From IMG/VR virus record IMGVR_UViG_2870083564_000004, positions 34,943-98,942 of that record: 64,000 nucleotides of DNA; one strand, 5' to 3'. This document shows positions 5,140 through 53,234 of this stretch, piece by piece. The DNA comes from a virus (Duplodnaviria; Heunggongvirae; Uroviricota; Caudoviricetes). The notes under the pieces were generated by a model. That model was not told the DNA's origin. It did no database searches and saw nothing but the letters and a program-made list of their open reading frames with translations. A program made the position numbers and the translations under genes. Each line of letters begins with the position of its first letter. The first letter of the stretch is position 1.

Positions 5140-5829
5140 TCATTCCTTGAGGCGTGCTCCTGAGTCAAGGTCGGCGACCATCCCGTCAGCGGAATAGAGT
5201 TGCAACATCGCGCGAGCGGCCTCGACGTTCGACGTCGTGAGCCATTCTCCCCAATCGTCCGGCCGAAGTATGACGATCGACCGCTTTTCGTCGCCCGGCT
5301 TGTGCATGCGCGACATGATGGCATGCCCTTCGGCATTCACCGTGATCATCGACATCGCGTGCGATTCGTTCCCGTCCGTGCCCGTCAACGTGCGCCAGAT
5401 CCCCGCGACGCAGTAGGGCCGCCAGCCCGTCAGGCCGATTCGATGCCAGACGTTTCGGCCGGTCTCGTAGCACGGCTCGTAAATCCATCGCACCGGAATC
5501 AGGCAGCGGCGACCTGCGCGCCACGCCGGCCCGTATAGCGGCGATCGCCCAAGATTGTCATCGCGCACGTTCATCGTGCTACGCATGATCGGCGGCTTCT
5601 TGCCCTCCTCTTTCGCCTTCTCGATGTTCGCCTTCTGCAAGGCGCGCGGCCAGTAGCCGAACCCAGCGAGAATCGCCTCGACGCGCCCATTGACCATCGC
5701 CACGGTGGGCGCGAGATAGTCCGGGTAAATCTCAGGCTCCCAAGGCGTTCTCTTCCATAGGTCGATTAGGCCAAGCCGTAGCTCGCTGATCCCCGGATCT
5801 TCGTCCGGCGCGCGGTAATTGGTGCACAC
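5140..5829 (-). CDS. SOS response-associated peptidase (SRAP/YedK, DUF159)
   Basis: The GTG start gives M-C-T-N-Y with the catalytic Cys at position 2. SRAP-like blocks are present (RRCLIPVRWIYE, MITVNAEGHAIMSRMH, RPDDWGEWL). The track ORF extends 15 codons further upstream. Confidence 0.6.
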   Translation of the reverse strand: MCTNYRAPDEDPGISELRLGLIDLWKRTPWEPEIYPDYLAPTVAMVNGRVEAILAGFGYWPRALQKANIEKAKEEGKKPPIMRSTMNVRDDNLGRSPLYGPAWRAGRRCLIPVRWIYEPCYETGRNVWHRIGLTGWRPYCVAGIWRTLTGTDGNESHAMSMITVNAEGHAIMSRMHKPGDEKRSIVILRPDDWGEWLTTSNVEAARAMLQLYSADGMVADLDSGARLKE

Positions 5830-5880
5830 GGCGGCACCTCTTTTCAGGGGATGGATCACTTCATCATAGTCCAAGATATA

Positions 5881-5896
5881 CTGTATAAAATTACAG
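5881..5896. promoter_or_regulatory. LexA (SOS) box CTGTATAAAATTACAG
   Basis: Perfect CTGT-N8-ACAG with an AT-rich spacer, in the 85-bp gap between the divergent SRAP gene and ORF 5915. Confidence 0.5.
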
Positions 5897-5914
5897 GCCT
5901 TCCCGTATTACGAA

Positions 5915-6556
5915 ATGATCCTGCCACCGTTCAATCCACCCAAGCTACCCGAGATGACTGAGTGGTGGACGCGCTGCACATATGCGGACGTCCAGCGTCT
6001 GATTCTCGAAGTTCAGCACCAGCGCCTCACTTTGTGGGAGCTTCGCAGCTGCATTGCCGATGCGTCGCGGCGGGTACGCGCGATCGACCCATCGTTGCTT
6101 GAGTATGGCGCGCCGCTACGGAGGCTCGGCTACATCGTCGACAAGGAAATTGGTCGTGCCGCCCCGTTCGCTCGCATGCGGGAACCGGTCGCGCCGTTTT
6201 CCGACGAGTGGCGTGCACGGCAAGAAATCAGGTCAAAGCGCTGGGAGTCGCCGGACGACACGCCACCCGGCGCATCTCCGAAATCAATCCCAGAGTTTCA
6301 GCGGGTAACGTGGGAAGAATTGCGCGAGAAATGGCGTTTCGAGGAAGGCAAGAATGTCGGCCGGCACACGCTCGAGCAACGCATGGCGCTCGAGATCGCG
6401 TATTTGCGAAGCCACATTGTCGGAAAGTCGCGAAAGCTCGTCGATGCAGCCCGGGTTGAAGCAGAGAAAAGCGGTGTGGAGTTGTTCGCGCTAGACCATC
6501 TGAAACGCCTTCTCGAAGTCGAGCGCGACGAAGAGGCGTTCTACCGCATCACGTAG
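5915..6556 (+). CDS. hypothetical protein
   Basis: 213-aa ORF with ATG start, divergent from the SRAP gene across the LexA box. Confidence 0.4.
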   Translation: MILPPFNPPKLPEMTEWWTRCTYADVQRLILEVQHQRLTLWELRSCIADASRRVRAIDPSLLEYGAPLRRLGYIVDKEIGRAAPFARMREPVAPFSDEWRARQEIRSKRWESPDDTPPGASPKSIPEFQRVTWEELREKWRFEEGKNVGRHTLEQRMALEIAYLRSHIVGKSRKLVDAARVEAEKSGVELFALDHLKRLLEVERDEEAFYRIT

Positions 6557-6690: not shown

Positions 6691-7809
6691 TCAAACTGGA
6701 TCGCCACTATCGATCGGAATCGAGCCTTTGGGCAAACGTGGCGTTTTGAGGACCGCAGCTTTCGCACTGAGCAATTCGTCGTCGCCCACCTCGAAGCGGC
6801 GCAGCCACGCTGCCGTTGATTCGCGCGTGTTGTAGACCGGCGCGCCGGCGTTGACCGTGCCGCGCTGAAGAATGTCCATGCTTTCCGCTCGCACACGCCG
6901 CAGTGCCTTATCGAGGACGACGTAGGCTGGTGGCAAGAACGGGGGTTGCTCCTCGCGCTCAGAGAGCCCCGACTCAGGCAACACGCCCGCACGGATGATA
7001 ACGCCGGCACCATAATCACCAATGGCAAACCAATTCGGGGGAAGTTCCGACGTCAGCGCGCGAACGCCGCCGACAGTGTCCAACATGGGCTTGCCGATAG
7101 CTGTCAGCCAATTGACGGATTTAATTTTGCCCTTCAGATCGCGGGCTGAAGTCGATCCGGGGTCGCCGACATCGAGCCCCGGCATAATTTGCGCGATCCA
7201 GTATTCCGTCGCCTCATTCTCGTGAGGAGCGGTCGGGGAAAGGTTGACGGCGAAGCCCGCCTGACCTTGAACGGCATCTAAGCGGCGCGCAGCATCAAAG
7301 AACAGTTTTGCGAAGGCATCGGGGTTCTCTTGGACAGCCACAACCGGCCATGAGAACGCTAGGGAGTTGAGACCGCGGTTGCCCATCTTCTCTTGCCACT
7401 GGCGCTGACCCACGACCTCGAATCTCCAAAAACTTGCGTCCGAAGCTTGCTCCCCGCCAACGTAGCAGAAGTCGAAACGATCCTCAGGACCGAGCTTACT
7501 GGCGGCGGCACGCAGAGGCTTGGCCCGCGCGAACGCCTGCGCCACCTTCCCGTTACTCCATAGGAACGTCAATTTGCATTCGGGTACAGCACAGTAGTCG
7601 TCGAAACAGTCGGCAACCGCCGCGCGGACGGCGGGATCGAATGCACGCTCAAAATAAAGCGACGCGCGCACGACGACGGCCGCTCCGATTCCACCGGTTG
7701 CGTAGCGAGGTTCCAAAAGACCATTGGGCACCAGCGCTTTGCCCTGATTGGCCTTCGCCCATTCGAGAAAATTCTGATCCATATTCGCGTCGATGCTAGG
7801 AAGGCTCAA
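6691..7809 (-). CDS. putative immunity protein for the upstream nuclease toxin
   Basis: 372-aa ORF that starts (TTG) directly after the toxin stop codon. Its position matches toxin/immunity pairs; the Imm-family assignment is not certain. Confidence 0.4.
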   Translation of the reverse strand: MSLPSIDANMDQNFLEWAKANQGKALVPNGLLEPRYATGGIGAAVVVRASLYFERAFDPAVRAAVADCFDDYCAVPECKLTFLWSNGKVAQAFARAKPLRAAASKLGPEDRFDFCYVGGEQASDASFWRFEVVGQRQWQEKMGNRGLNSLAFSWPVVAVQENPDAFAKLFFDAARRLDAVQGQAGFAVNLSPTAPHENEATEYWIAQIMPGLDVGDPGSTSARDLKGKIKSVNWLTAIGKPMLDTVGGVRALTSELPPNWFAIGDYGAGVIIRAGVLPESGLSEREEQPPFLPPAYVVLDKALRRVRAESMDILQRGTVNAGAPVYNTRESTAAWLRRFEVGDDELLSAKAAVLKTPRLPKGSIPIDSGDPV

Positions 7810-8544
7810 TTATGGAACGACTATGGGGGGCGGCGGCAACGGCAAGCCACCCATGCCAGGCGGGATAGCAGGACTGCGGTTAAGTAGCTGACGCAGGGAA
7901 CGCCCGAGTTCGGAGAGCGCCTCAGAAACCGCTCGGAGCGGACTTTCATTGGCGTCATCGTCGGAGCAGTCACAGTCGCCGGGGCCCATAGTCGCAACCT
8001 TTTCGGGCGAACCCGCAATCCGTGCGTAGTCGTCCTCTTGCTCGCGATCCCTTTCTTGAGGCGGGAATTTAATCTCCACCACGCTCTTGATGTTGTCCTG
8101 AGTTGGCGGCAGAGATCCGTCCTTGACAATCACCACGTCGGGGCGCCGAACAGCACCGGCGCCCGCGGGATACGCATCTTTCCCGCCAGGCCAGTATTTT
8201 TGAATCCAGCCTGGCAAGTAAGGGTGCGGCTCCAAGGGAGACGCGGAGCGCATGATCGGCGACGGAGGGATCTGCGTCATGTCGTAGTTGACTTCCGACT
8301 TGTACGGGCTCTTCCACCCCATAGACCGATCCACGTCGCGCAGGTTGCGCGAAACGCACTGCTGCTTGAGGCTTTGGCGCGATGCACCAGTGTCTGGCTC
8401 TCGACTGCATACACAAACGGCCTTGCAGATGACCTTTTTATCGACCGGGTCGGGCGTAGCGGGCCGAAGACGCACGGGCGTCGTTTCGCCCTTCGGCGAC
8501 ATGCCACCTTGACCGGAGTTGGCTCCGTAGGCACGACCACTCAT
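7810..8544 (-). CDS. putative PD-(D/E)xK-fold nuclease toxin (PAAR-associated effector)
   Basis: Contains RRPDVVIVKDGS...VVEIKFPP, a D...(E/D)xK arrangement. Its ATG overlaps the PAAR stop as ATGA, which indicates translational coupling. The track ORF allows a longer N-terminus up to 8622. Confidence 0.45.
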   Translation of the reverse strand: MSGRAYGANSGQGGMSPKGETTPVRLRPATPDPVDKKVICKAVCVCSREPDTGASRQSLKQQCVSRNLRDVDRSMGWKSPYKSEVNYDMTQIPPSPIMRSASPLEPHPYLPGWIQKYWPGGKDAYPAGAGAVRRPDVVIVKDGSLPPTQDNIKSVVEIKFPPQERDREQEDDYARIAGSPEKVATMGPGDCDCSDDDANESPLRAVSEALSELGRSLRQLLNRSPAIPPGMGGLPLPPPPIVVP

Positions 8545-9101
8545 AAAACACCGCCTTCGCCGGGCCCCTGAGTCGACTCGGCTGAAAATTGCAACGATCC
8601 AGCCGTGTTTGCCTCGTGCCACTGCGTGTAGCCGTCGGCGTCGGTCTGGCCAGATATTGTCCGGCCGTCCGCTGTTTGCAGAACGTAGGGATGGTTCGCG
8701 ATCGGTTTTCCAGTCGTCTCGTCAAATACCTGGAAGCGCCCACGGTATAGATTGTCCGGCCCTCGTGGCATCGACTGCGGAACGACGCTCTTCCCACCGC
8801 CGATCGAATTGCCGCCAGCGGCCCCTGATGTAGGGGCCACCGTGGCGAAGCCTTGCGACGCGATAAGCGTTGCCCCACACGCGGTCTTGTCTCCGTCTGT
8901 AGCAATCGGCCTGTCACCAAACGTCATGTTCAACTCGCGCTTTACGCTGACGATCGGGTAAATCCCACCACATCGCGGACACGTCACCATGTCGCCAAGC
9001 AATGCGATTGCCCTTCCATGAACCGTGTTGGCGACATTACAGCCGACCACACGCCCCCCATGCGTGGTCGTGTCTCCCTCGCAAATAAACGCAAACCCCA
9101 T
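8541..9101 (-). CDS. PAAR-domain protein
   Basis: N-terminal FICEGDTTTHGGRVVGC...GDMVTCPRCGG matches the PAAR repeat logic (GDxTxHGG ... GDMxxCP). Confidence 0.6.
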   Translation of the reverse strand: MGFAFICEGDTTTHGGRVVGCNVANTVHGRAIALLGDMVTCPRCGGIYPIVSVKRELNMTFGDRPIATDGDKTACGATLIASQGFATVAPTSGAAGGNSIGGGKSVVPQSMPRGPDNLYRGRFQVFDETTGKPIANHPYVLQTADGRTISGQTDADGYTQWHEANTAGSLQFSAESTQGPGEGGVL

Positions 9102-36115: not shown

Positions 36116-37690
36116 TTAAGCGGCAGTCGAGAGAGGTTGCCAACGATGCGGCAGTAGCGCGTCGATGTCGTTGGCCTTGTGGGTCGGCAAGCGTGTGAGG
36201 ACGTCCTTCAGATAGGCGAGCGGATCGAGCCCGTTCAGTTGCGCCGATCGAATCAAGCTCATGATGGCGGCCGCGCGCTGACCCGCACGCAGTGATCCGG
36301 CGAACAACCAATTGGACCGACCGACTGCCCACGGTCGGATCTGGTTTTCGACCCAGTTGTTGTCGATCGGCACATTGCCGTCATCGAGATAGCGCGTGAG
36401 TGCGTCCCATCGTTTCAGGCTGTAGTCCAGCGCCTTCGCAATCGCCGAGCCGTCCGCAACGAGTTTGCGCTGCGCCATCAACCATTCATAGAGGGCGTCG
36501 CACACCGGCTTGGCCCGACGCTGTCGAAGCCGCTGCCGTTCGTCGACATCCAGTGCTGCGGCCTCGCGTTCGATGTCGTAGAGCGCGGTAAAGAACGGCA
36601 GGGCCTGCCCCGCAACATGGCTGCTGTGGTTGGCATGCAATTCAAAGAACTTGCGTCGAGCATGGGCCGCGCATCCGATCTCGGTGATGCCGTGCTGGAA
36701 CGAGGCCTTGTACCCGCTGTAGTCGTCGCATACCAGTTTGCCGTGCCAGCCCGTCAGGAACGTGCGAGCGTGCGCACCGGCGCGGCTCTCGGCGAAGTCG
36801 TAGACCACCGCGCGCAGTTCGCTGAACTGAGTCGACGTATACGCCCACAGGTATGCCCGGTGCGTTTTGCCCTTGCCGGGACTGAGCATTTGCACCGGCG
36901 TCTCGTCGGCGTGCAACACCGCCTGTTGCCGGATGGCCTGGCCGAGTGCGTCGACCAACGGCTGCAACTGCACGCCACACCGGCCCACCCAGGCACCCAG
37001 CGTGGATCTCGGGATGGCCAGTCCCGCACGACCAAAGATCTGTTCCTGGCGATACAGGGGCAGGTGGTCGCCGTACTTGGCGACCAGCACCTGCGCGAGC
37101 AACCTGGCGGTGGGCATGCCCTTGTCGATCACATGCGGTGGAACCGGCGCTTGGATCAGCGTCTCGCACGCTTTGCACACCCACTTGCCGCGGATGTGCC
37201 GTTCCACCGTAAACACACCCGGCGTGTAGTCCAGCTTCTCGCTCACGTCCTCGCCGATCCGTATGCGTTCGCAACCGCACTGGCACGTTGTGCTGTCCGG
37301 TTCGTGATGGACGTCGGTGCGTGGCAGTTGCGGCGGCAGTGGTGCCCGTTTCGGCTGCTCGCGTTGCCGTTCAGCTCGCGTCGGCTCAAGTTGCTCAAGC
37401 TCCATCTCGATGGCAACCAAGTCGCCATCGATCGCCTCGTCGAGCAGGTTCATCTGCTCGCTGTTGAGCTGTTCGCTGCGCCGGCCGAACTGCTGGCGCT
37501 TGAGGATCGAGATCTCATGGGTAAGCTGGTCGATGCGGGTCTGCTTGTAGCGGAGTTCCCGATCTCGTTCACTGGCTTCCCGCTCCTTCTCGTGGATCGC
37601 CTGGTCCTTCGACTGGACCTCTGCAATCAGTTGCGCAGTCAGGGCGCGCAACTGCTCCGGGGTGAGTGCGTCGAGGTCAGCGGGATTCAT
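36116..37690 (-). CDS. tnpC: IS66 transposase TnpC
   Basis: 524 aa with N-terminal coiled coil/Leu zipper, a CxxC zinc motif and a DDE core typical of IS66 TnpC. Confidence 0.85.
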   Translation of the reverse strand: MNPADLDALTPEQLRALTAQLIAEVQSKDQAIHEKEREASERDRELRYKQTRIDQLTHEISILKRQQFGRRSEQLNSEQMNLLDEAIDGDLVAIEMELEQLEPTRAERQREQPKRAPLPPQLPRTDVHHEPDSTTCQCGCERIRIGEDVSEKLDYTPGVFTVERHIRGKWVCKACETLIQAPVPPHVIDKGMPTARLLAQVLVAKYGDHLPLYRQEQIFGRAGLAIPRSTLGAWVGRCGVQLQPLVDALGQAIRQQAVLHADETPVQMLSPGKGKTHRAYLWAYTSTQFSELRAVVYDFAESRAGAHARTFLTGWHGKLVCDDYSGYKASFQHGITEIGCAAHARRKFFELHANHSSHVAGQALPFFTALYDIEREAAALDVDERQRLRQRRAKPVCDALYEWLMAQRKLVADGSAIAKALDYSLKRWDALTRYLDDGNVPIDNNWVENQIRPWAVGRSNWLFAGSLRAGQRAAAIMSLIRSAQLNGLDPLAYLKDVLTRLPTHKANDIDALLPHRWQPLSTAA

Positions 37691-37753
37691 GCAGGCCAGT
37701 CTGCCAGAACGCTGTAGGCGGTGGAAGCTGAACTGTTTACGCCTCCGTCGTAC

Positions 37754-38092
37754 TCAGACGACACGGATCACGCCACTCCCGCCAATGCGTTGCCACGGCA
37801 GGCCCAGCACCAGGCCGGCCAGTTGTTCGTGCGTCAGTTCATGCTGCTTCGGTTCGCTGCCGGCGTGCGGCCAGGCAAATTGCCCCTGATTCAGACGTCG
37901 TGCTGCCAACCAAATGCCGATCCCGTCGTGGATCAGGACCTTCATGCGGTTGGCGCGGCGATTGGCGAACAGATAAGCATGGTGTGGGTGCGCGGCACCG
38001 AATACCTTGACCACGCGCGCCAAGGCCGTGTCGAAACCGGCACGCATGTCCAGCGGATCGGTCGCCAGCCAGATCTCGTCGACGCGGATCAC
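37754..38092 (-). CDS. tnpB: IS66 TnpB (Orf2)
   Basis: IRVDEIWLATDPLDMRAGFDTALARVV...; GTG start overlaps the TnpA stop (GTGA). Confidence 0.8.
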   Translation of the reverse strand: MIRVDEIWLATDPLDMRAGFDTALARVVKVFGAAHPHHAYLFANRRANRMKVLIHDGIGIWLAARRLNQGQFAWPHAGSEPKQHELTHEQLAGLVLGLPWQRIGGSGVIRVV

Positions 38093-38472
38093 CGCATCCA
38101 CTCGCGCAGCCAGGCGGCACACTGGGCGGCTTCGGACACGGGCCAACTGACCGTGATCGACTGATCGCCCCGGCGCACCTCGATGCGGATCTCTGCCGAG
38201 TGCGGACTCGGCGCTCCCAATGGCACCGACACAAAGGCTGGCAGCGACGGTGGCGTGGCCGGTGGACGACCCAGCGGTCTCTTGGGAAGTCGCCCCTCCG
38301 CCTGATCGATCCAGCGCCGCAGCAGATTCGCGTTGAGCCGGTGTTCCAGCGCGACCGCAGCAACCGATACGCCGATTCCCTGGCACGCAGCTACCACCTG
38401 CGCCTTGAACTCCTCGCTGTACCGTTGCCGGCGACGACGCTCGGGGAGTGCTTCCGATTCGATAGTGTTCAC
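38089..38472 (-). CDS. tnpA: IS66 TnpA (Orf1)
   Basis: 127 aa, HTH-like (YSEEFKAQVVAAC), first ORF of IS66. Confidence 0.75.
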   Translation of the reverse strand: MNTIESEALPERRRRQRYSEEFKAQVVAACQGIGVSVAAVALEHRLNANLLRRWIDQAEGRLPKRPLGRPPATPPSLPAFVSVPLGAPSPHSAEIRIEVRRGDQSITVSWPVSEAAQCAAWLREWMR

Positions 38473-47592: not shown

Positions 47593-48821
47593 CCGATCAC
47601 CCCTCGACACGCTTCAATCCACGCGACCGCCGCTTCCGCGTTGATCGCGTTGCCGTAGGCGCGCAGTCGTCCCACTCGCGCGGGAGCCCCATGAGCCAGC
47701 GGCTGTGTGCCGGGTTCAACTGGCCGCCACTTTCCATCCCGGCAGAGGAGCCAGTCAGCATCTCGCCAGAAGCCGTTAGTCGGGCCGGCTGGCTCGATTC
47801 GCTCGAAGCCGTCAGGTAGGCCATCGCCGCTAGATCCGCTCCGTGCGAGCGCATCGCTTCGCGAATGCCGCCTTCCGTTGACCGCACGCCCTTGTCCGCG
47901 AGTGCCGCTGTCGGTGTCGGCCAACCCGCGAATTGCGCCACGTGATTCAGGCTCACCGCGACCTTGCGGCCGTCTGGTGTCTTGCCTGTCGAACTCAGCC
48001 CCTCGAACGATTGCGAGCCCATCGCGTTGCCCACCGTCGGGGTCGGCCACCCGGCAAGTTGAACTTGGTGATCGAGCGTCGTCACCGATTGCCCGCACGA
48101 CAGGCCCACTTTCCTCGCAAGCGCTTGCTCCGGCGTGCCGCCCGGTGCCGAGGCGTTCGGCGTGCCCCATCCGGCTAGCCAAGCCACTCGACCGAGCAGC
48201 GCGTTCAGCGGCACGTTCGCGCATTCCGCGCCGTCCTTGTGATCGCGCGTGGTTGGCGTAGGCCATCCAGTACGCGCGATCCCGGATGTGCGGAGCACCG
48301 ACGCCCGCAGACGGGAACGGGACACACCCATAGGCGTAGTCCAAGGCTTCCACGTCAGCTTGAACAAGGTCGATCCAAGGGTCGACAGCCGAGCTCGCAA
48401 CCTGCTCTCCAAGGATGATTGCAGGGCGGCGCTCGCCGATGAGCCAGTACCACGCAGGCCAGAGATGCCGCTCGTCATCAAACCCAAGTCCTTTGCCTGC
48501 CGCGCTGAAAGGTTGGCAAGGACAGGAACCGGTCCAAACAGGTCGATCGTCGGGCCATCCGGCGCGACGGAGCGCGTAGGACCAGACGCCGACGCCGGCG
48601 AAGAAATGGCACTGGGTGTAGCCGCGCAGGTCGTCGGGATGCACGTCGCGGATGTCGCGCTCGTCGACGTCGCCAGGCGCAATGTGACCGGCGGCGATGA
48701 GGTTTCGCAGCCATGCGGCGGCGACTGGATCGTGCTCGTTGTAGTAGGCGACACTCAAGCGCTCCCCACTACTCGGCCATACCGCGCAGCCGCGCGGAAA
48801 TATCGAGAAGCACCTGCGCAT
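47589..48821 (-). CDS. DNA cytosine-5 methyltransferase
   Basis: FAGVGV (motif I-like), PCQPFS (motif IV), GEQV (ENV-like) and GNAINAEAA (motif X). The start is uncertain and may overlap the 3' end of the CII-like gene. Confidence 0.6.
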
Positions 48822-49209
48822 GCTTGAAGATTCGGTGATCCACGCGCTCGATCTCGTGCCGCTCGACACGGCCGTCTTCGAGCGTCTTCACGATCTCCTG
48901 TCCGACGTCGCCGTGCGTGGACCACGCCTTGCCCATCAGTTCGACGATCGCGGCGTCGCAGCAGTCCACAGCGCTCGGCAACTTCACGAGCGCATAACCC
49001 CGCGCCGTAGCCCACGCTTCGAGCATCCGATCGTCGTCGGTCACGTCCGTCGCGCGAACCGCGTCAGCGAGCCCGAGGTGATGCGTAGCGTTGTTTGGGT
49101 TCACCTTGTTCCGCAGCACCGCCGCCGACATACCAAGACGCGGCGCGAGCGACTCACTGCCGCCCGGGTAATCGTGAACAACCGCGTATGCGGCGTCGAT
49201 GATGTTCAT
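48769..49209 (-). CDS. CII-like regulator (Phage_CP76 family)
   Basis: AAYAVVHDYPGGSESLAPRLGMSAAVLRNKVNPNNATHHL. Confidence 0.6.
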   Translation of the reverse strand: MNIIDAAYAVVHDYPGGSESLAPRLGMSAAVLRNKVNPNNATHHLGLADAVRATDVTDDDRMLEAWATARGYALVKLPSAVDCCDAAIVELMGKAWSTHGDVGQEIVKTLEDGRVERHEIERVDHRIFKHAQVLLDISARLRGMAE

Positions 49210-49392
49210 TCAATCCTCATCTGAACGTTGTTCGTCACGGTAAGGACTACTAAAGTGTGTCCCTATGACGTGAACGAAATTTCAACTTCCTCGACCACGC
49301 CATGCAGGCGCGATCTACTGCATTGGGCGAGGGTCCCGGACTTTCGTCTTAGAATTGGCAGCTCTCAAACAACCACTTCTCTACGGGCCCTC

Positions 49393-49629
49393 ATGGAAGT
49401 TCCAAACCACGAACTCGAAATTCTTGCTAACCGCGTCCTCATTCAAACGATCATTGCGGCACTCGAAGTGGCGCATCCCGGCTCCGAGGCAACGATCAAA
49501 CGGCTAATTGAGAAATTCACTCAGGTCGACGGCCTAGACCTATTGAGCGAAAAGATTGCCGAGATTGCTTTGCGGGTCGTCTCTAACGAGCCCGAGAAAC
49601 CAACTCTGACGCTCGTAAAGTCCGACTAA
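49393..49629 (+). CDS. hypothetical protein
   Basis: 78-aa ORF with lower GC, antisense to the cro-to-cII transcription direction. Confidence 0.25.
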   Translation: MEVPNHELEILANRVLIQTIIAALEVAHPGSEATIKRLIEKFTQVDGLDLLSEKIAEIALRVVSNEPEKPTLTLVKSD

Positions 49630-49790: not shown

Positions 49791-50120
49791 TTGAATAAGA
49801 TAAAACCGGCACCGCTCACGCAGCACGACCTCGATCACCACCGCCTCAGAATCCAGGTCCTCGCCCTACAGCAAATCGTCTTGCGATTACTCGTCCAACG
49901 ATCGTTCGAGGAAGTCGACGGCGATCCGAAGGAAACGCGCGAGCTCGCGCCCTTGCGCCTACGTGAAGCGCTTCAAGGGCTAGAGCCGGAACCCGGTACC
50001 TCGGAATGGCATCCAGCCGAAGCGGCCGCGTTCGACGACGAACACCGCGAAGTGCTTGCCGACCTGCACAAGCACCTTGAGGTCGTGCTCGCCGACCTGA
50101 TTCCGACGGAAGAAGACTGA
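49791..50120 (+). CDS. hypothetical protein
   Basis: 109 aa, acidic, convergent with the Cro-like gene. Confidence 0.3.
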   Translation: MNKIKPAPLTQHDLDHHRLRIQVLALQQIVLRLLVQRSFEEVDGDPKETRELAPLRLREALQGLEPEPGTSEWHPAEAAAFDDEHREVLADLHKHLEVVLADLIPTEED

Positions 50121-50126
50121 GCGGCA

Positions 50127-50369
50127 TCACGCCGTTGTCTCCTTCTGTTGGGTGAGTTCCGGCCAGATCAGGTGCCAATCCTTTGGCCGTAGATCGCGCC
50201 GGGTTACGTCACCACTCGTGAGCCGTTCAATCGCGACGCAATGACGAACAGGCACCCCGAGTCGCTTCCATTGGCTGACCGCAGCCTTCGTCACGCCGAG
50301 GCAGGTAGCTAATGCAGCGGCCGAGCCAGCAATGGCCGCAGCGCGGGCGATGGGTGAGGTTTTGTCCAT
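50127..50369 (-). CDS. Cro-like HTH regulator (YdaS/Cro family)
   Basis: 80 aa (LGVTKAAVSQWKRLG); divergent from the CI-like gene across an 81-bp AT-rich gap. Confidence 0.55.
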   Translation of the reverse strand: MDKTSPIARAAAIAGSAAALATCLGVTKAAVSQWKRLGVPVRHCVAIERLTSGDVTRRDLRPKDWHLIWPELTQQKETTA

Positions 50370-50450: not shown

Positions 50451-50840
50451 ATGAACCTTGCGCAGTGGCTAAAAATTTCCCGGGAAAAAGCGGGACTCAC
50501 CCTCGAAGAGATCGGCGACGTCGTTAGCCGATCAAAGGGGGCAATTTCTCAGTGGGAAAACGGGAAGACAGAGCCGAGCTATTGGCAGGTGTTGGCCATC
50601 TATGAGCGGACCAATCGTGCCGTCGATCTGCCGACTCTTGCTGACGCGCCGGTCGAAGTGGGATTGAGCATCAGCGATGCATGGCTCGCCAAGCTCAGCC
50701 CGAGCGCACGATCTCTGATCGACGCAGTCGCCGTGGCAGACCAAAGAAGCGTATCCCCGGCCGCCCTCGAAGCAATCGCAACTTTGCTTAAATCAATTCC
50801 CGGGGGAGATCCCGAGGACGGTGAACAGCTGCGTCTGTAG
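50451..50840 (+). CDS. CI-like repressor, XRE HTH, no S24 peptidase domain
   Basis: LTLEEIGDVVSRSKGAISQWENGK HTH; 129 aa. No Ser/Lys autocleavage motifs are present. Confidence 0.65.
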   Translation: MNLAQWLKISREKAGLTLEEIGDVVSRSKGAISQWENGKTEPSYWQVLAIYERTNRAVDLPTLADAPVEVGLSISDAWLAKLSPSARSLIDAVAVADQRSVSPAALEAIATLLKSIPGGDPEDGEQLRL

Positions 50841-51129
50841 ACTCGCGTGAGTCGACCATCGAGCCATGAATCGGCTCAAGCTGAGCGTCGTCTGCCAGCA
50901 TATTGTTACCGATTCCCAATCGGCGCCTATTTTTTGTGAGTGTGATCCCGGGCTCGCCAAGAAGGGTTATCGTCCATTCTGTGGACTTGTGAATCCTGCC
51001 AACCAGTACGATACGCCCCACTAGGGCTGGGTTCCACGCAGAAACCACCCTTGCCAGATCCCCCGGCCTGCAGCGCAGGCGCGCCGTCGATTCTTTGTTC
51101 ATTACCGCCCTCTTTATTATTTTCGCCAC
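50788..51129 (-). CDS. hypothetical protein (convergently overlaps the 3' end of the CI-like gene)
   Basis: Composition looks coding (not Arg-rich), but the overlap makes it uncertain. Confidence 0.25.
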   Translation of the reverse strand: MAKIIKRAVMNKESTARLRCRPGDLARVVSAWNPALVGRIVLVGRIHKSTEWTITLLGEPGITLTKNRRRLGIGNNMLADDAQLEPIHGSMVDSRESTDAAVHRPRDLPRELI

Positions 51130-51132
51130 AAA

Positions 51133-51150
51133 ACTGTATGAATATACAGT
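51133..51150. promoter_or_regulatory. LexA/SOS box aCTGTATGAATATACAGt (18/20 to the E. coli consensus)
   Basis: CTGT-N8-ACAG with complementary flanks, sitting at the left edge of the AT-rich island. TATAAT is about 45 bp downstream. Confidence 0.55.
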
Positions 51151-51217
51151 ATTCTGCCAAGGTCAAAGTGGCCTATCAATGACAATTCTGACAGGATATA
51201 ATGGGGCCATATCAAAG

Positions 51218-51367
51218 ATGAATCATCATCACCAAGGGAAATCTATCCCCATTGATGCGCATCACCAATATAGGGCATGGATACAATTTGTCAGTCATGT
51301 CACCCGTGCAGCCGAACAAACTAAGCGCGCAAAAGATGCGGTCGGCATGCGCCAAGAGCGCTATTGA
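51218..51367 (+). CDS. small His-rich ORF (MNHHHQGK...), candidate antirepressor-like peptide
   Basis: 49 codons between the SOS box and the 301-aa gene, with a weak RBS. Confidence 0.2.
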   Translation: MNHHHQGKSIPIDAHHQYRAWIQFVSHVTRAAEQTKRAKDAVGMRQERY

Positions 51368-51400
51368 GAACTACAACCACAATCCGGGGGATGTAAACTG

Positions 51401-52306
51401 ATGGACATGAGTGAATTTCGCATTACCTACGACGGGCCAGCCCTCGAGACGTCTGAAATGGACGTCCGCGAACTCGCGCCCGCTCTCATTGCAATTGGCG
51501 ACCTGCTGGAAGCGGCCACCAAGTCCCTTTGTGGCGACCAAGTCAAATCACAGGTAAATGTCCGTGGCAGTTTCAAGACTGGAAGTTTCGGTATCGACTT
51601 CAATCTCGTCACATCATTTGTCAGCAGGATGCGAGAGCTATTTGCCGGAAACGAGGCAACGGCGATCGCAAACGCACTAGCTATTCTCGGAGCAATCGGG
51701 TTTGCAGCGGAAAAGGGCGGTCGCGGCCTCTTTTCAGTTTTAAAGTGGCTACGCGGTCGCCCCATTGAGCGCGTCCAGGTTCAAGACAATAGTGCAATCC
51801 TGTATGTAGAAGGTGACATGCTTGAGATCGAACTCAGCGTGCTCACCCTACTACGCGACGTATCCGTACGCGAGGCAACGGCCCGCGTGCTGTCTCCGCT
51901 TTCCAGAGAAGGCATTATGATCTTCTCCGCCGGCTCGGACTCCGACATTGTGGAAACCGTTACAGACGATGAGATCGGTTGGTTTCATGCGCCCGAGCAG
52001 CAGGATATTCTGCTTGTTGATGAAACTCGCAAGATGGCCTTCTCAATCGTCTCTCTGGCATTCAAAGATGACAATAAGTGGCGCCTGTACGACGGTGCGG
52101 CAACGATTCATGCGTCAATCACCGATGCCGACTTTCTCAAACGTGTTGACAGCAATCAAATCAGCTTTGCAAAAGGAGACGTTCTGGTCTGTAGCGTCCG
52201 CGTCAAGCAATGGCAAACACCATCTGGTGCAAAAACAGATTACGAAGTGACTGAAGTTCTCGAACATCGCACAGCTGCCCGGCAGATCCAGCTTCCAGGC
52301 CTCTAA
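51401..52306 (+). CDS. hypothetical 301-aa protein (AT-rich island gene 1)
   Basis: Clean ORF with GGGGGA RBS; one internal hydrophobic segment; no motif I recognise. Followed by an intrinsic terminator. Confidence 0.5.
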   Translation: MDMSEFRITYDGPALETSEMDVRELAPALIAIGDLLEAATKSLCGDQVKSQVNVRGSFKTGSFGIDFNLVTSFVSRMRELFAGNEATAIANALAILGAIGFAAEKGGRGLFSVLKWLRGRPIERVQVQDNSAILYVEGDMLEIELSVLTLLRDVSVREATARVLSPLSREGIMIFSAGSDSDIVETVTDDEIGWFHAPEQQDILLVDETRKMAFSIVSLAFKDDNKWRLYDGAATIHASITDADFLKRVDSNQISFAKGDVLVCSVRVKQWQTPSGAKTDYEVTEVLEHRTAARQIQLPGL

Positions 52307-52308
52307 TT

Positions 52309-52336
52309 GCCCCGCCCCGCGCGGGGCTTTTCATTG
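52309..52336 (+). terminator. intrinsic terminator
   Basis: GCCCCGC-GCGGGGC followed by TTTTCATT. Confidence 0.5.
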
Positions 52337-52604: not shown

Positions 52605-53234
52605 ATGCGTGATACGGTACTGCAATGTCAGCATGGGCAAACCGCCACGGAGCAGATATTGTTAAGAAACTTAAAATTTACATTACTCACAATTTCATCA
52701 ATTATATTAATAATCATACTGCTTGGAGTATACAAAACAGCAAGAATTTCCCAGGAGAGACGAACGGAACGCAGCTTGATCCAAGTTTCCCTGCTTTTGG
52801 AGGCATCGCTCAAATCGGATCGAACAAAGAAACCGGAGGACTACGCGAGATTTGGCGACTTGAGACCTATGAACCATGTCCAAGAAGAACATTCAGACGG
52901 ACCATTCTCGCCCTTCGAAAGCAGAGAATTAGCAGATATTGCAAATATCTACAAGGAAAGTGTGACGCGCATCGTCGAGCTCATAGACAAGAAAAGCACA
53001 CTCGAAAGCCAAATTCGCGACGCTCGCTGGTATAAATCGGATGACTGGTATCAAAAAATTGAAGATGCGCGCCATGAGCTTGCATCTTTATCAATCGATT
53101 TAATTAGATCATTGCGAGATGCCCGATCGGCAGGCCTCGATGCTAGCAAGCACCTAAATGAATTCTATTTCCCTGCTACCGAAATAGACCTTGGCATCAT
53201 TCGCTACAGTTCCCTGACCTATTCCACAGAGTAA
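52605..53234 (+). CDS. single-pass membrane protein with coiled coil (AT-rich island gene 2)
   Basis: N-terminal TM (FTLLTISSIILIIILLGVY), then a charged helical region. About 38% GC. Confidence 0.45.
   Translation: MRDTVLQCQHGQTATEQILLRNLKFTLLTISSIILIIILLGVYKTARISQERRTERSLIQVSLLLEASLKSDRTKKPEDYARFGDLRPMNHVQEEHSDGPFSPFESRELADIANIYKESVTRIVELIDKKSTLESQIRDARWYKSDDWYQKIEDARHELASLSIDLIRSLRDARSAGLDASKHLNEFYFPATEIDLGIIRYSSLTYSTE

What the first reader, a model, noticed from the sequence alone, without database searches (positions are those of the whole stretch)
50451..51370. Repressor lacks an autocleavage domain while a consensus LexA box lies just downstream: inference of antirepressor-mediated SOS induction
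The CI-like protein is 129 aa, with an HTH and a short C-terminal domain but no S24 peptidase Ser/Lys motifs. RecA-stimulated self-cleavage therefore looks unlikely. A LexA box at 51133-51150 (18/20 to TACTGTATATATATACAGTA) sits 290 bp downstream of the repressor stop. It precedes a TATAAT, a 49-codon His-rich ORF and the 301-aa gene. In phages such as coliphage 186 (Tum) and Gifsy-type prophages, non-cleavable repressors are inactivated by LexA-controlled antirepressors. One of these ORFs may play that role. This reading competes with the Rex-like reading in the island finding above.
Basis: inference. Interest (0 to 1): 0.6.

Follow-up and report, generated by a model that had tools for sequence, protein, structure and literature searches.

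The report
LexA-controlled small gene facing phage repressor

Summary
The 129-aa CI-like protein (50451-50840) has only an HTH domain plus a short helical tail. A strong LexA box lies at 51132-51151 and matches the consensus at 17/20, not 18/20. The gene assignment is wrong. The box overlaps the start site of a sigma-70-like promoter that fires leftward into a missed minus-strand ORF (51102-50788, 104 aa). That ORF is convergent with cI and overlaps its 3' end.

In 29 of 30 related loci (Burkholderia, Pandoraea and Paraburkholderia phages and prophages) a homolog of this ORF has TACTGT-N8-ACAGTA about 15-45 nt before its inferred start, less where that start is uncertain. Each of the 29 faces a short (about 114-199 aa, by ORF call) repressor with no S24 peptidase domain.

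The protein models as an SH3/KOW-like beta-barrel. It has no Pfam or NCBIfam family and no similarity to 186 Tum or to the presumed Gifsy-2 antirepressor ORF. I found no published description.

The 301-aa gene is a PADLOC defence candidate (PDC-S42, "LAPAL" family). Elsewhere it occurs without a LexA box. The His-rich ORF is not found next to its homologs.

Best reading: SOS-dependent induction through an antirepressor, a known logic carried by a new protein family and a new gene layout. LexA control of the small ORF is about 0.9 likely; its antirepressor function is about 0.55 and untested.

The parts
50451..50840 (+). CI-like immunity repressor, 129 aa. N-terminal XRE-type HTH, flexible linker, three-helix C-terminal domain; no S24 peptidase domain.
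   Evidence: Pfam HTH_31/HTH_3 only. AF2 model is all-alpha. Homologs are 114-143 aa; nine of ten carry HTH domains only and one has no domain on record. The N-terminus resembles the P22 C2 DNA-binding domain.
50127..50369 (-). Cro-like regulator (YdaS/P22 Cro family), divergent from cI. It heads the leftward early operon that continues to cII (48769-49209).
   Evidence: Pfam YdaS_toxin 2e-19 and P22_Cro 1e-10; cII matches Phage_CP76 at 8e-43.
50788..51102 (-). Missed 104-aa ORF (MNKESTARLRCRPGDLARVV...), convergent with cI and overlapping its last 53 nt. It is the candidate SOS-controlled antirepressor. Predicted SH3/KOW-like beta-barrel core (residues about 11-80) with a disordered tail.
51105..51112 (-). 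Shine-Dalgarno-like GAGGGCGG, just upstream (2 nt) of the ATG of the small ORF.
   Evidence: Read directly from the sequence.
51132..51151 (.). LexA box AACTGTATGAATATACAGTA (core CTGT-N8-ACAG at 51134-51149). It covers roughly +1 to +16 of the leftward promoter.
   Evidence: An equivalent box occurs in 29 of 30 homologous loci. The consensus of those boxes is TACTGTATATATATACAGTA.
51151..51179 (-). Sigma-70-like promoter of the small ORF: -35 TTGATA (51179-51174), 17-nt spacer with TG, -10 CAGAAT (51156-51151). The -10 ends 1 nt before the box.
   Evidence: Promoter scan. The same geometry (at least 8 of 12 hexamer matches, -10 ending 1 nt before CTGT) is found in 23 of 29 loci.
50799..50816 (-). 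Terminator-like hairpin at the end of the small ORF, inside the cI 3' coding region.
   Evidence: consensus match only.
50909..50923 (+). Terminator-like hairpin after cI, lying inside the small ORF. The two transcripts would therefore overlap by about 130 nt.
   Evidence: consensus match only.
51218..51367 (+). 49-codon His-rich ORF with no good Shine-Dalgarno sequence. Not conserved beside homologs of the 301-aa gene; probably a leader region or a chance ORF.
51401..52306 (+). 301-aa moron gene: PADLOC defence candidate PDC-S42, NCBIfam 'LAPAL motif-containing putative phage structural protein', phrog_3243. Not part of the SOS module.
   Evidence: PADLOC 7e-111. NCBIfam NF053583 7e-85. PHROG 3e-68. 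Homolog contexts lack a LexA box. Intrinsic-terminator-like hairpin at 52309-52327.

Best explanation
The window carries a phiE125-like prophage of Burkholderia pseudomallei. Its immunity repressor is a short HTH protein that cannot undergo RecA-stimulated self-cleavage. The only strong LexA site in the prophage lies over the transcription start of a leftward promoter, which drives a 104-aa gene convergent with cI.

Proposed mechanism:
1. In the lysogen, LexA occludes this promoter.
2. DNA damage leads to LexA cleavage and the small beta-barrel protein is made.
3. The protein binds the repressor, most likely its conserved C-terminal helical (oligomerisation) domain rather than the variable DNA-binding domain.
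4. The repressor is released from its operators, so the Cro and early lytic promoters fire.
5. Convergent transcription into the 3' end of cI may also lower cI expression.

Status of each step:
- Shown by sequence and comparison: the repressor lacks S24; the box, promoter, RBS and ORF architecture exists; it is conserved; the gene is always partnered with short repressors.
- Inferred, not tested: LexA binding in vivo, the protein-protein interaction, and the requirement of the gene for induction.

The 49-codon ORF and the 301-aa gene to the right are a separate moron (defence-candidate) cassette.
For: 1. Repressor: HTH only, all-alpha model, 129 aa.
2. Box quality: PWM score 29.8 against a shuffle maximum of 11.8, and no other prophage site above background. 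A weaker host site in the same window lies just upstream of an SRAP gene, a family whose Pfam name links it to the SOS response; that fits this motif being the host's LexA box. CTGT-N8-ACAG is the beta-proteobacterial LexA motif, and the B. pseudomallei lexA and recA boxes look the same (PMC3323433 and its supplement).
3. Geometry: the -10 CAGAAT ends 1 nt before the box, the -35 is TTGATA, and a Shine-Dalgarno-like sequence and ATG follow 22-31 nt after the box core.
4. Conservation: 12 of 12 phage loci and 17 of 18 genome loci with a homolog carry TACTGT-N8-ACAGTA in the same place, although flanking sequence has diverged. 23 of 29 keep the same promoter geometry.
5. Partner: in all 29 loci the gene is convergent with a roughly 114-199-aa putative repressor that overlaps it by 13-85 nt. 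The nine scanned with Pfam lack Peptidase_S24 and none of the 29 has the active-site motif. The module occurs in several phage genera: Stanholtvirus, Magiavirus, Bigmanorsvirus and Pandoraea prophages.
6. Pairing pattern: the small-protein core stays 64-92% identical between loci whose repressor DNA-binding domains are unrelated (3-28% identity). The repressor C-terminal domains fall into two motif classes that track small-protein subtypes. The Mantel correlation is rho 0.59 for core against C-terminal domain and 0.41 for core against N-terminal domain.
7. Inducibility: phages carrying the module (vB_RY3, vB_E253, vB_PR2a, vB_E192a and others) were obtained by mitomycin C treatment (PMC12860723).
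8. Precedent: the logic is established for coliphage 186, N15 and the Gifsy phages (PMC3121763; 186 annotation).
Against: - No experiment of any kind supports the protein's function.
- The covariation with the repressor C-terminal domain is confounded by tight physical linkage, because the two genes overlap. It also has counter-examples: L001 shares its C-terminal domain type with L005 and L014 but its small-ORF type with L010.
- More distant family members (59 IMG/VR loci, and L022) have no LexA box and no repressor partner. They lie among replication and nin-type genes. The fold is therefore not intrinsically an antirepressor fold, and the protein could have another target.
- The SH3/KOW-like fold is generic.
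- There is no sequence similarity to Tum or to the presumed Gifsy-2 GftA ORF.
- The paper cited for mitomycin recovery gives no untreated control in the passages I read.
Confidence: 0.55

Rival explanations
1. The small ORF is truly LexA-regulated, but its protein is not an antirepressor. It would do something else timed to DNA damage, such as a host-directed nin-type function, inhibition of cell division or growth, or modulation of RecA or LexA. Any effect on lysogeny would come from SOS-driven convergent transcription or antisense RNA across the 3' end of cI, or from an unidentified factor.
For: Distant homologs lie in replication and nin regions with no LexA box and no repressor partner. 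The fold is a generic small barrel. The transcripts of cI and the small ORF must overlap by about 130 nt. The covariation with the repressor has exceptions and is confounded by linkage.
Against: The gene pairs invariably with short S24-less repressors across different phage backbones and heteroimmune DNA-binding domains. That pattern is hard to explain if the protein has nothing to do with the repressor. The protein sequence is under clear constraint (286 family representatives), so an RNA-only role is insufficient. These phages still need some link between the SOS response and a non-cleavable repressor, and no other LexA site exists in the prophage.
Confidence: 0.3
2. One reading: the LexA box represses a rightward promoter (TATAAT at 51197), and the 49-codon His-rich ORF or the 301-aa protein is the antirepressor.
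For: Both ORFs lie on the + strand to the right of the box, and a perfect TATAAT lies between them and the box.
Against: - The box lies 47 nt upstream of the TATAAT, beyond any -35 position, and there is no acceptable -35; the promoter scan did not list this site.
- The TATAAT and everything to its right are absent from vB_RY3, which keeps the box and the leftward gene.
- The 301-aa protein is PDC-S42/LAPAL. In 12 other viral contigs it has no CTGT-N8-ACAG box within 2.5 kb, and in several it follows an ORF with an S24-like C-terminal sequence, judged by eye and not scanned. It also occurs in Gram-positive phages, where the LexA motif is different (the motif difference is from general knowledge).
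- The His-rich ORF has no family, no homolog beside those copies and no good Shine-Dalgarno sequence.
Confidence: 0.04
3. The repressor is inactivated by a route that needs no phage-encoded SOS gene, for example host protease degradation, a RecA-dependent mechanism without an S24 domain, or an antirepressor from another prophage. On this view the box and small ORF are incidental to induction.
For: Cross-talk by foreign antirepressors is documented in Salmonella (PMC3121763). Nothing here excludes it experimentally.
Against: No ImmA-type protease or Ant/KilA-type gene was found beside the repressor or among the early genes examined. This view does not explain the strict conservation of the box, small ORF and repressor arrangement.
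Confidence: 0.08

Closest known systems
Coliphage 186 Tum (LexA-controlled promoter p95)
   Same: A non-cleavable CI is inactivated by a phage protein whose promoter is repressed by LexA. In 186 the LexA box overlaps the -10 and the start codon follows about 19 nt after the box. The spacing here is comparable.
   Different: There is no sequence similarity (hhalign probability 0.2%). The model here is a beta-barrel, whereas I recall the Tum C-terminal half as DinI-like; that was not tested here. tum lies at the far end of the 186 genome, not beside and convergent with cI. The 186 repressor is unrelated.
Gifsy-1/-2/-3 antirepressors GfoA, GftA and GfhA (Lemire et al. 2011, PMC3121763)
   Same: Short (about 136-aa) non-cleavable lambdoid repressors are inactivated by small LexA-controlled proteins. 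One antirepressor works on heteroimmune repressors, which parallels one small-protein type being paired here with unrelated DNA-binding domains.
   Different: [quoted passage not shown] There is no similarity to the presumed Gifsy-2 ORF (hhalign probability 0.1%). The repressors are not detectably related beyond the HTH.
N15 AntC, P22 Ant and SPC32H Ant
   Same: Induction or anti-immunity through a protein that binds the repressor. From my own knowledge, N15 and SPC32H are LexA-controlled.
   Different: From my own knowledge they are different, mostly larger, proteins in separate immI-type loci. They were not compared by sequence here.
Lambda CI, P22 C2 and LexA-type S24 self-cleaving repressors
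   Same: An N-terminal HTH of the same superfamily (weak match to the P22 C2 N-terminal domain), and the same genetic position divergent from cro.
   Different: The whole S24 catalytic and dimerisation domain is missing.
Lambda rexAB-type morons beside cI (relevant to the 301-aa gene)
   Same: A prophage accessory or defence-candidate gene placed next to the repressor gene. In other viral contigs PDC-S42 homologs sit directly after an ORF whose C-terminal sequence looks S24-like by eye.
   Different: There is no homology to RexA or RexB. Here the gene is separated from cI by the convergent small ORF and is not co-oriented in an operon with cI.

Membership tests
LexA-controlled antirepressor induction systems (186 Tum / Gifsy / N15 type), as a functional class | The immunity repressor lacks the S24 self-cleavage domain. 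| tested here: met
   HTH only, 129 aa, all-alpha model. The nine partner repressors scanned with Pfam lack S24, and none of the 29 has the active-site motif.
LexA-controlled antirepressor induction systems (functional class) | The candidate gene has a LexA box overlapping its promoter or transcription start. | tested here: met
   The box lies 1 nt downstream of the -10 of a leftward sigma-70-like promoter. It is conserved in 29 of 30 loci, and 23 of 29 keep the same promoter geometry. PWM score 29.8.
LexA-controlled antirepressor induction systems (functional class) | The protein binds the repressor and removes it from its operators; the gene is necessary and sufficient for SOS induction. | not testable with these tools
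   Only indirect support: obligatory pairing with short repressors, and partial covariation with the repressor C-terminal domain.
LexA-controlled antirepressor induction systems (functional class) | The prophage is inducible by DNA damage without repressor cleavage. | not testable with these tools
   Related phages carrying the module were recovered after mitomycin C (PMC12860723). The fate of the repressor is unknown.
Tum family (coliphage 186) | Sequence homology to Tum. | tested here: not met
   hhalign probability 0.2%. The window ORF had no Pfam hit at E <= 0.01 (weakest listed: DUF6093, E 0.03).
Gifsy antirepressor family (GftA/GfoA/GfhA) | Sequence homology, and a location outside the immunity region next to dinI. 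| tested here: not met
   hhalign probability 0.1% to the Gifsy-2 ORF between dinI and the next gene, presumed to be GftA. The gene here is adjacent to and convergent with cI.
S24 self-cleaving repressors (lambda CI / LexA) | A C-terminal Peptidase_S24 domain with a Ser/Lys dyad and an Ala-Gly cleavage site in the linker. | tested here: not met
ImmR/ImmA-type protease-inactivated repressors | An adjacent ImmA-like (COG2856/M78) metalloprotease gene. | tested here: not met
   The neighbours are the Cro-like gene, the small barrel ORF and unknown ORFs. None has a peptidase hit.
PADLOC PDC-S42 / NCBIfam NF053583 'LAPAL' (the 301-aa gene) | A full-length HMM match above the family cut-off. | tested here: met
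   PDLC05015 at 7e-111 over residues 1-299. NF053583 scores 285 bits against a cut-off of 60. phrog_3243 at 3e-68. The function of the family is itself unproven.

The most novel reading that the evidence does not exclude
The 104-aa SH3/KOW-like barrel protein would found a previously undescribed family of SOS-controlled antirepressors specific to Burkholderiaceae temperate phages. Members include phiE125, KS9, Bcep176, phi644-2, Magia, BgManors32 and Pandoraea prophages. The family would have been recruited from a nin-region small-protein family and wired head-to-head against cI. It would then act on two levels: the protein neutralises the conserved C-terminal domain of heteroimmune, non-cleavable repressors, which allows cross-induction in polylysogens, and convergent transcription interferes with cI.
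Probability: 0.45. Interest if true: 0.6.

Novelty: new variant of a known kind. Interest (0 to 1): 0.5.

Why it matters
If the reading is right, it explains how a large group of Burkholderia and Pandoraea temperate phages respond to DNA damage even though their repressors cannot self-cleave. The group includes prophages of the select agent B. pseudomallei and phages considered for therapy against the B. cepacia complex, such as KS9.

It would add a structurally new antirepressor family and a new layout, in which the gene is convergent with and overlaps cI.

It gives a simple handle for engineering. Deleting or de-repressing a single roughly 100-aa gene should lock or trigger induction.

It also predicts antirepressor cross-talk between heteroimmune prophages in polylysogenic Burkholderia, as seen for the Gifsy phages.

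On the practical side, the gene is unannotated or mis-annotated in several reference phage genomes. In phiE125, for example, the annotated gp51 lies across the LexA box.

Tried and rejected
- Plus-strand targets. I tested whether the box could serve the + strand ORFs and rejected it on promoter geometry, lack of conservation and the identity of the 301-aa protein.
- Known families for the small ORF. Pfam, NCBIfam and PADLOC gave nothing for the window ORF beyond a sub-threshold DUF6093 hit at E 0.03. PHROGs matched only distant members, to phrog_2529 of unknown function.
- Known antirepressors. Profile comparison to 186 Tum and to the presumed Gifsy-2 GftA ORF showed no similarity.
- Wider generality. 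I tried to extend the box-repressor association to the wider family in IMG/VR. It failed: only 3 of 62 distinct loci have the box, and those three are Burkholderia-type. The rest sit among replication and nin genes, and their apparent convergent ORFs look spurious.
- A broad alignment (A3) was too diverse for the locus finder.
- Rfam found no RNA family in 48.5-55 kb.
- Literature. Six full-text searches found no description of this gene or of LexA-controlled antirepressors in Burkholderia phages. The KS9 gp41 paper (PMC2812329) is not held. 'hypB', a Burkholderia-specific LexA-regulated hypothetical gene in PMC3323433, appears to be BPSS0003, apparently a chromosomal gene rather than this one.
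- A complex prediction of the small protein with the repressor could not be run with the tools available.
Full report
**Context**

The window is Burkholderia DNA. The small ORF described below is 100% identical to a B. pseudomallei hypothetical protein on a 3.29-Mb contig. The region 48.7-51.2 kb matches phiE125-like Burkholderia siphoviruses at 84-96% identity.

The finding lies in the immunity region of a prophage. The genes there are:
- cII (Phage_CP76) at 48769-49209 (-);
- a Cro/YdaS-like gene at 50127-50369 (-);
- the divergent CI-like gene at 50451-50840 (+).

**Checking the observation**

The CI-like protein is 129 aa. Pfam finds only HTH_31/HTH_3 at residues 3-50. All ten database homologs are 114-143 aa; nine carry HTH domains only and one has no domain on record.

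An AlphaFold model is all-alpha. It shows a confident four-helix HTH at residues 1-55, a low-confidence linker, three helices at 74-114 and a disordered tail. There is no G[DNES]SM (S24 active-site serine) motif, and the only Ala-Gly lies inside the HTH. About 70 residues after the HTH cannot hold an S24 domain. Self-cleavage is therefore excluded as far as sequence can tell.

The LexA box is real.
- CTGTATGAATATACAG lies at 51134-51149. The window holds 4 CTGT-N8-ACAG matches against 0.36 expected.
- The 20-mer at 51132-51151 has 3 mismatches to the consensus, so it is 17/20 rather than the 18/20 claimed. No shuffle came that close.
- A weight matrix trained only on boxes from other loci scores it 29.8. 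The training range is 21-35 and the best of 20 shuffled windows is 11.8.
- The only other site above background (13.7) is at 5879-5898, immediately upstream of a gene with an SRAP domain (Pfam: SOS response-associated peptidase). That fits this motif being the host's LexA box.
- CTGT-N8-ACAG is the accepted LexA motif of most beta- and gamma-proteobacteria. The predicted B. pseudomallei lexA and recA boxes have the same form (PMC3323433 and its supplement).

The TATAAT (51197-51202), the 49-codon His-rich ORF (51218-51367) and the 301-aa ORF (51401-52306) are all present.

The 290-bp "gap" between cI and the box is filled by a minus-strand ORF at 51102-50788. It encodes 104 aa from an ATG that follows a GAGGGCGG Shine-Dalgarno-like sequence. 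It is convergent with cI and overlaps its last 53 nt.

The promoter scan lists a leftward promoter: -35 TTGATA, 17-nt spacer with TG, -10 CAGAAT (51179 to 51151). Its -10 ends 1 nt before the box. The box therefore covers the transcription start of this leftward promoter, which is the classic position for LexA repression.

For a rightward promoter using the TATAAT, the box would lie upstream of the -35 position. No acceptable -35 exists, and the scan did not report such a promoter.

**Comparative test**

tblastn with the 104-aa protein finds homologs in 35 Burkholderia phage records. These include phiE125, Bcep176 (gp21), KS9 (gp40), phi644-2, Magia, BgManors32, Bups phi1 and many vB_ phages. 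In several records the ORF is not annotated.

A genome scan added 18 loci in Burkholderia, Pandoraea and Paraburkholderia. I examined 12 phage loci and all 18 genome loci.
- 29 of 30 have TACTGT-N8-ACAGTA about 15-45 nt before the inferred start (as little as 4 nt where the first in-frame start codon was taken). The consensus of these boxes is exactly TACTGTATATATATACAGTA.
- 23 of 29 keep a sigma-70-like promoter with at least 8 of 12 hexamer matches (TTGAAA/TTGATA, 17-18 nt, TAAACT/CAGAAT). In each the -10 ends 1 nt before CTGT.
- In vB_RY3, homology with the window covers the 5' end of the small ORF, the box and this promoter. It stops at about 51205, before the His-rich ORF.

LexA control of the leftward small ORF is thus well supported. 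I put it at about 0.9.

**The partner gene**

In all 29 loci the small ORF is convergent with a putative repressor ORF of about 114-199 aa (lengths depend on start-codon choice) and overlaps it by 13-85 nt. The nine scanned with Pfam show either HTH_3/HTH_31 or no domain, and never Peptidase_S24. None of the 29 has the catalytic motif.

KS9 gp41, one of these partners, is cited as the experimentally identified KS9 repressor (Lynch et al. 2010, cited in PMC13366799).

The N-terminal DNA-binding domains are highly diverse. The C-terminal roughly 50 residues fall into two motif classes:
- class A: ...LIDAIxxADxAGxPxxxFxLMLRMLP...
- class B: ...GWxxLDxxGRxKVEAFISGLLAQ...

Small-protein subtypes largely follow these classes.

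The small-protein core remains 64-92% identical between loci whose DNA-binding domains are unrelated (3-28% identity). This is the pattern expected if the protein targets the conserved C-terminal domain of heteroimmune repressors. Gifsy antirepressors behave in the same way (PMC3121763).

The Mantel correlation of pairwise identities is 0.59 for core against C-terminal domain and 0.41 for core against N-terminal domain. I treat this as supportive only. The genes overlap physically, so linkage alone produces covariation. There are also exceptions: L001 has the C-terminal domain type of L005 and L014 but the small-ORF type of L010.

**The protein**

There is no Pfam, NCBIfam or PADLOC family for the window ORF. 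Distant members touch phrog_2529, which has no known function.

A profile search of 1.84 billion representatives finds 286 proteins at E of 1e-3 or better, nearly all 80-130 aa. The conserved core is (R/K)C(R/K)PGDLA...G..V.V....W.....G...D..L.P(I/L)R, followed by a variable charged tail.

There is no similarity to 186 Tum (hhalign 0.2%) or to the Gifsy-2 ORF between dinI and the next gene, which I presume is GftA (0.1%).

**A limit on the inference**

Fifty-nine distinct, more distant family members in IMG/VR have neither the box nor a credible repressor partner. They lie beside replication-type and nin-type genes (assigned by eye from the sequences: YdaU/DUF1376-like, NinB-like, HNH). One Burkholderia locus (L022) is also operonic and has no box.

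The barrel family is therefore broader than the SOS module. The LexA-wired clade beside cI looks like a co-option specific to Burkholderiaceae. This keeps open the rival that the protein acts on something other than the repressor.

**The right-hand ORFs**

The 301-aa protein matches three families:
- PADLOC defence candidate PDC-S42 (7e-111, full length);
- NCBIfam NF053583 'LAPAL motif-containing putative phage structural protein';
- phrog_3243.

Its phage homologs are in Listeria, Lactobacillus and Bifidobacterium phages. In 12 IMG/VR contigs with 37-66% identical copies there is no CTGT-N8-ACAG box within 2.5 kb, no His-rich ORF and no barrel gene. In several the copy directly follows an ORF whose C-terminal sequence looks S24-like by eye (I did not scan these).

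It is a moron of the 'gene next to cI' kind, in a variable slot that holds other cargo in related phages. The His-rich ORF has no family hit, no conserved counterpart and no good Shine-Dalgarno sequence.

**Other candidates**

No peptidase or ImmA-like gene flanks cI. Ten early-region ORFs examined gave no Ant, KilA or Bro hit. The PWM finds no other LexA site in the prophage.

**Mechanism proposed**

LexA represses the leftward promoter. DNA damage derepresses it. The barrel protein then binds the repressor's C-terminal helical domain and inactivates it. Convergent transcription across the cI 3' end may add to the effect; terminator-like hairpins at 50816-50799 (-) and 50909-50923 (+) imply overlapping transcripts.

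Related phages carrying the module were obtained by mitomycin C treatment (PMC12860723), which is consistent with SOS inducibility. Everything downstream of "LexA controls this gene" is inference. Overall confidence is 0.55.

**Comparison and novelty**

The logic is that of 186 Tum, N15 AntC and the Gifsy antirepressors. The protein family is unrelated to Tum and to the presumed Gifsy-2 ORF. [quoted passage not shown]

Six literature searches found no description of it. I rate it a new variant of a known kind, of moderate interest (0.5). It is not surprising in principle. It is conserved, unannotated in several reference phages, relevant to B. pseudomallei and B. cepacia complex phages, and directly testable.

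Noticed in passing
window 5879-5898 (box); 5140-5874 (-); 5915-6556 (+): A second LexA-like box (TACTGTATAAAATTACAGGC, PWM 13.7) lies between a gene with an SRAP domain (SOS response-associated peptidase, PF02586) and a divergent 213-aa ORF with no family hit. It is probably a host SOS promoter, and it fits CTGT-N8-ACAG being the host LexA motif.
   Followed up: partly
window 6691-8622 (-): A 270-aa protein with a weak, sub-threshold VRR-NUC domain hit is followed by a TsiV-type 'type VI immunity for VRR-NUC' protein (PF11876, 5e-64). This looks like a T6SS nuclease effector-immunity pair just outside the prophage.
   Followed up: no
window 36116-38386 (-): Two transposase ORFs (phrog_688 at 3e-172; phrog_623) lie inside the prophage. 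An IS element appears to be inserted among the phage genes, so the prophage may be damaged.
   Followed up: no
window 51401-52306 (+); loci L032, L033, L035, L039: The 301-aa gene is PADLOC defence candidate PDC-S42 (LAPAL family). In several unrelated viral contigs its homolog sits immediately downstream of an ORF with an S24-like C-terminal sequence (by eye, not scanned). This recurrent rex-like position supports a prophage-expressed defence or exclusion role.
   Followed up: partly
L002 (phiE125, NC_003309) 8218-8547 (-), box at 8575-8590; also vB_E192a, phiBt-TXDOH, PhiBt-E264.1: The small barrel ORF is not annotated in phiE125 and several other deposited phage genomes. The annotated phiE125 gp51 (L002 8513-8701) lies across the LexA box and promoter, and is probably a mis-call.
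   Followed up: partly
loci L001-L029, repressor C-termini: The short repressors share one of two conserved C-terminal motif classes (A: LIDAIxxADxAGxP...LMLRMLP; B: GWxxLDxxGRxKVEAFISGLLAQ). These are attached to many unrelated DNA-binding domains, which points to a modular immunity-repressor design in Burkholderiaceae phages.
   Followed up: partly
loci L042-L121 (IMG/VR); L022 1977-2273: Distant members of the barrel family (MxCKPGDLAVIV...LRPIR) occur without a LexA box among replication-type and nin-type genes (YdaU/DUF1376-like, NinB-like, HNH; assigned by eye). Their function there is unknown.
   Followed up: partly
window 52605-53234 (+): A 209-aa ORF in the lowest-GC stretch of the window (about 0.50) has a hydrophobic N-terminal segment and only a weak hit to phrog_7263 (unknown function). 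It is probably a second moron gene beside PDC-S42.
   Followed up: no
window 49228-49629 (+) and 49791-50120 (+): Two + strand ORFs (133 aa, phrog_29103; and 109 aa with no family) lie between cro and cII, against the direction of the early operon. Counterparts are annotated in vB_RY3 and vB_PR2a. Their role is unknown.
   Followed up: no
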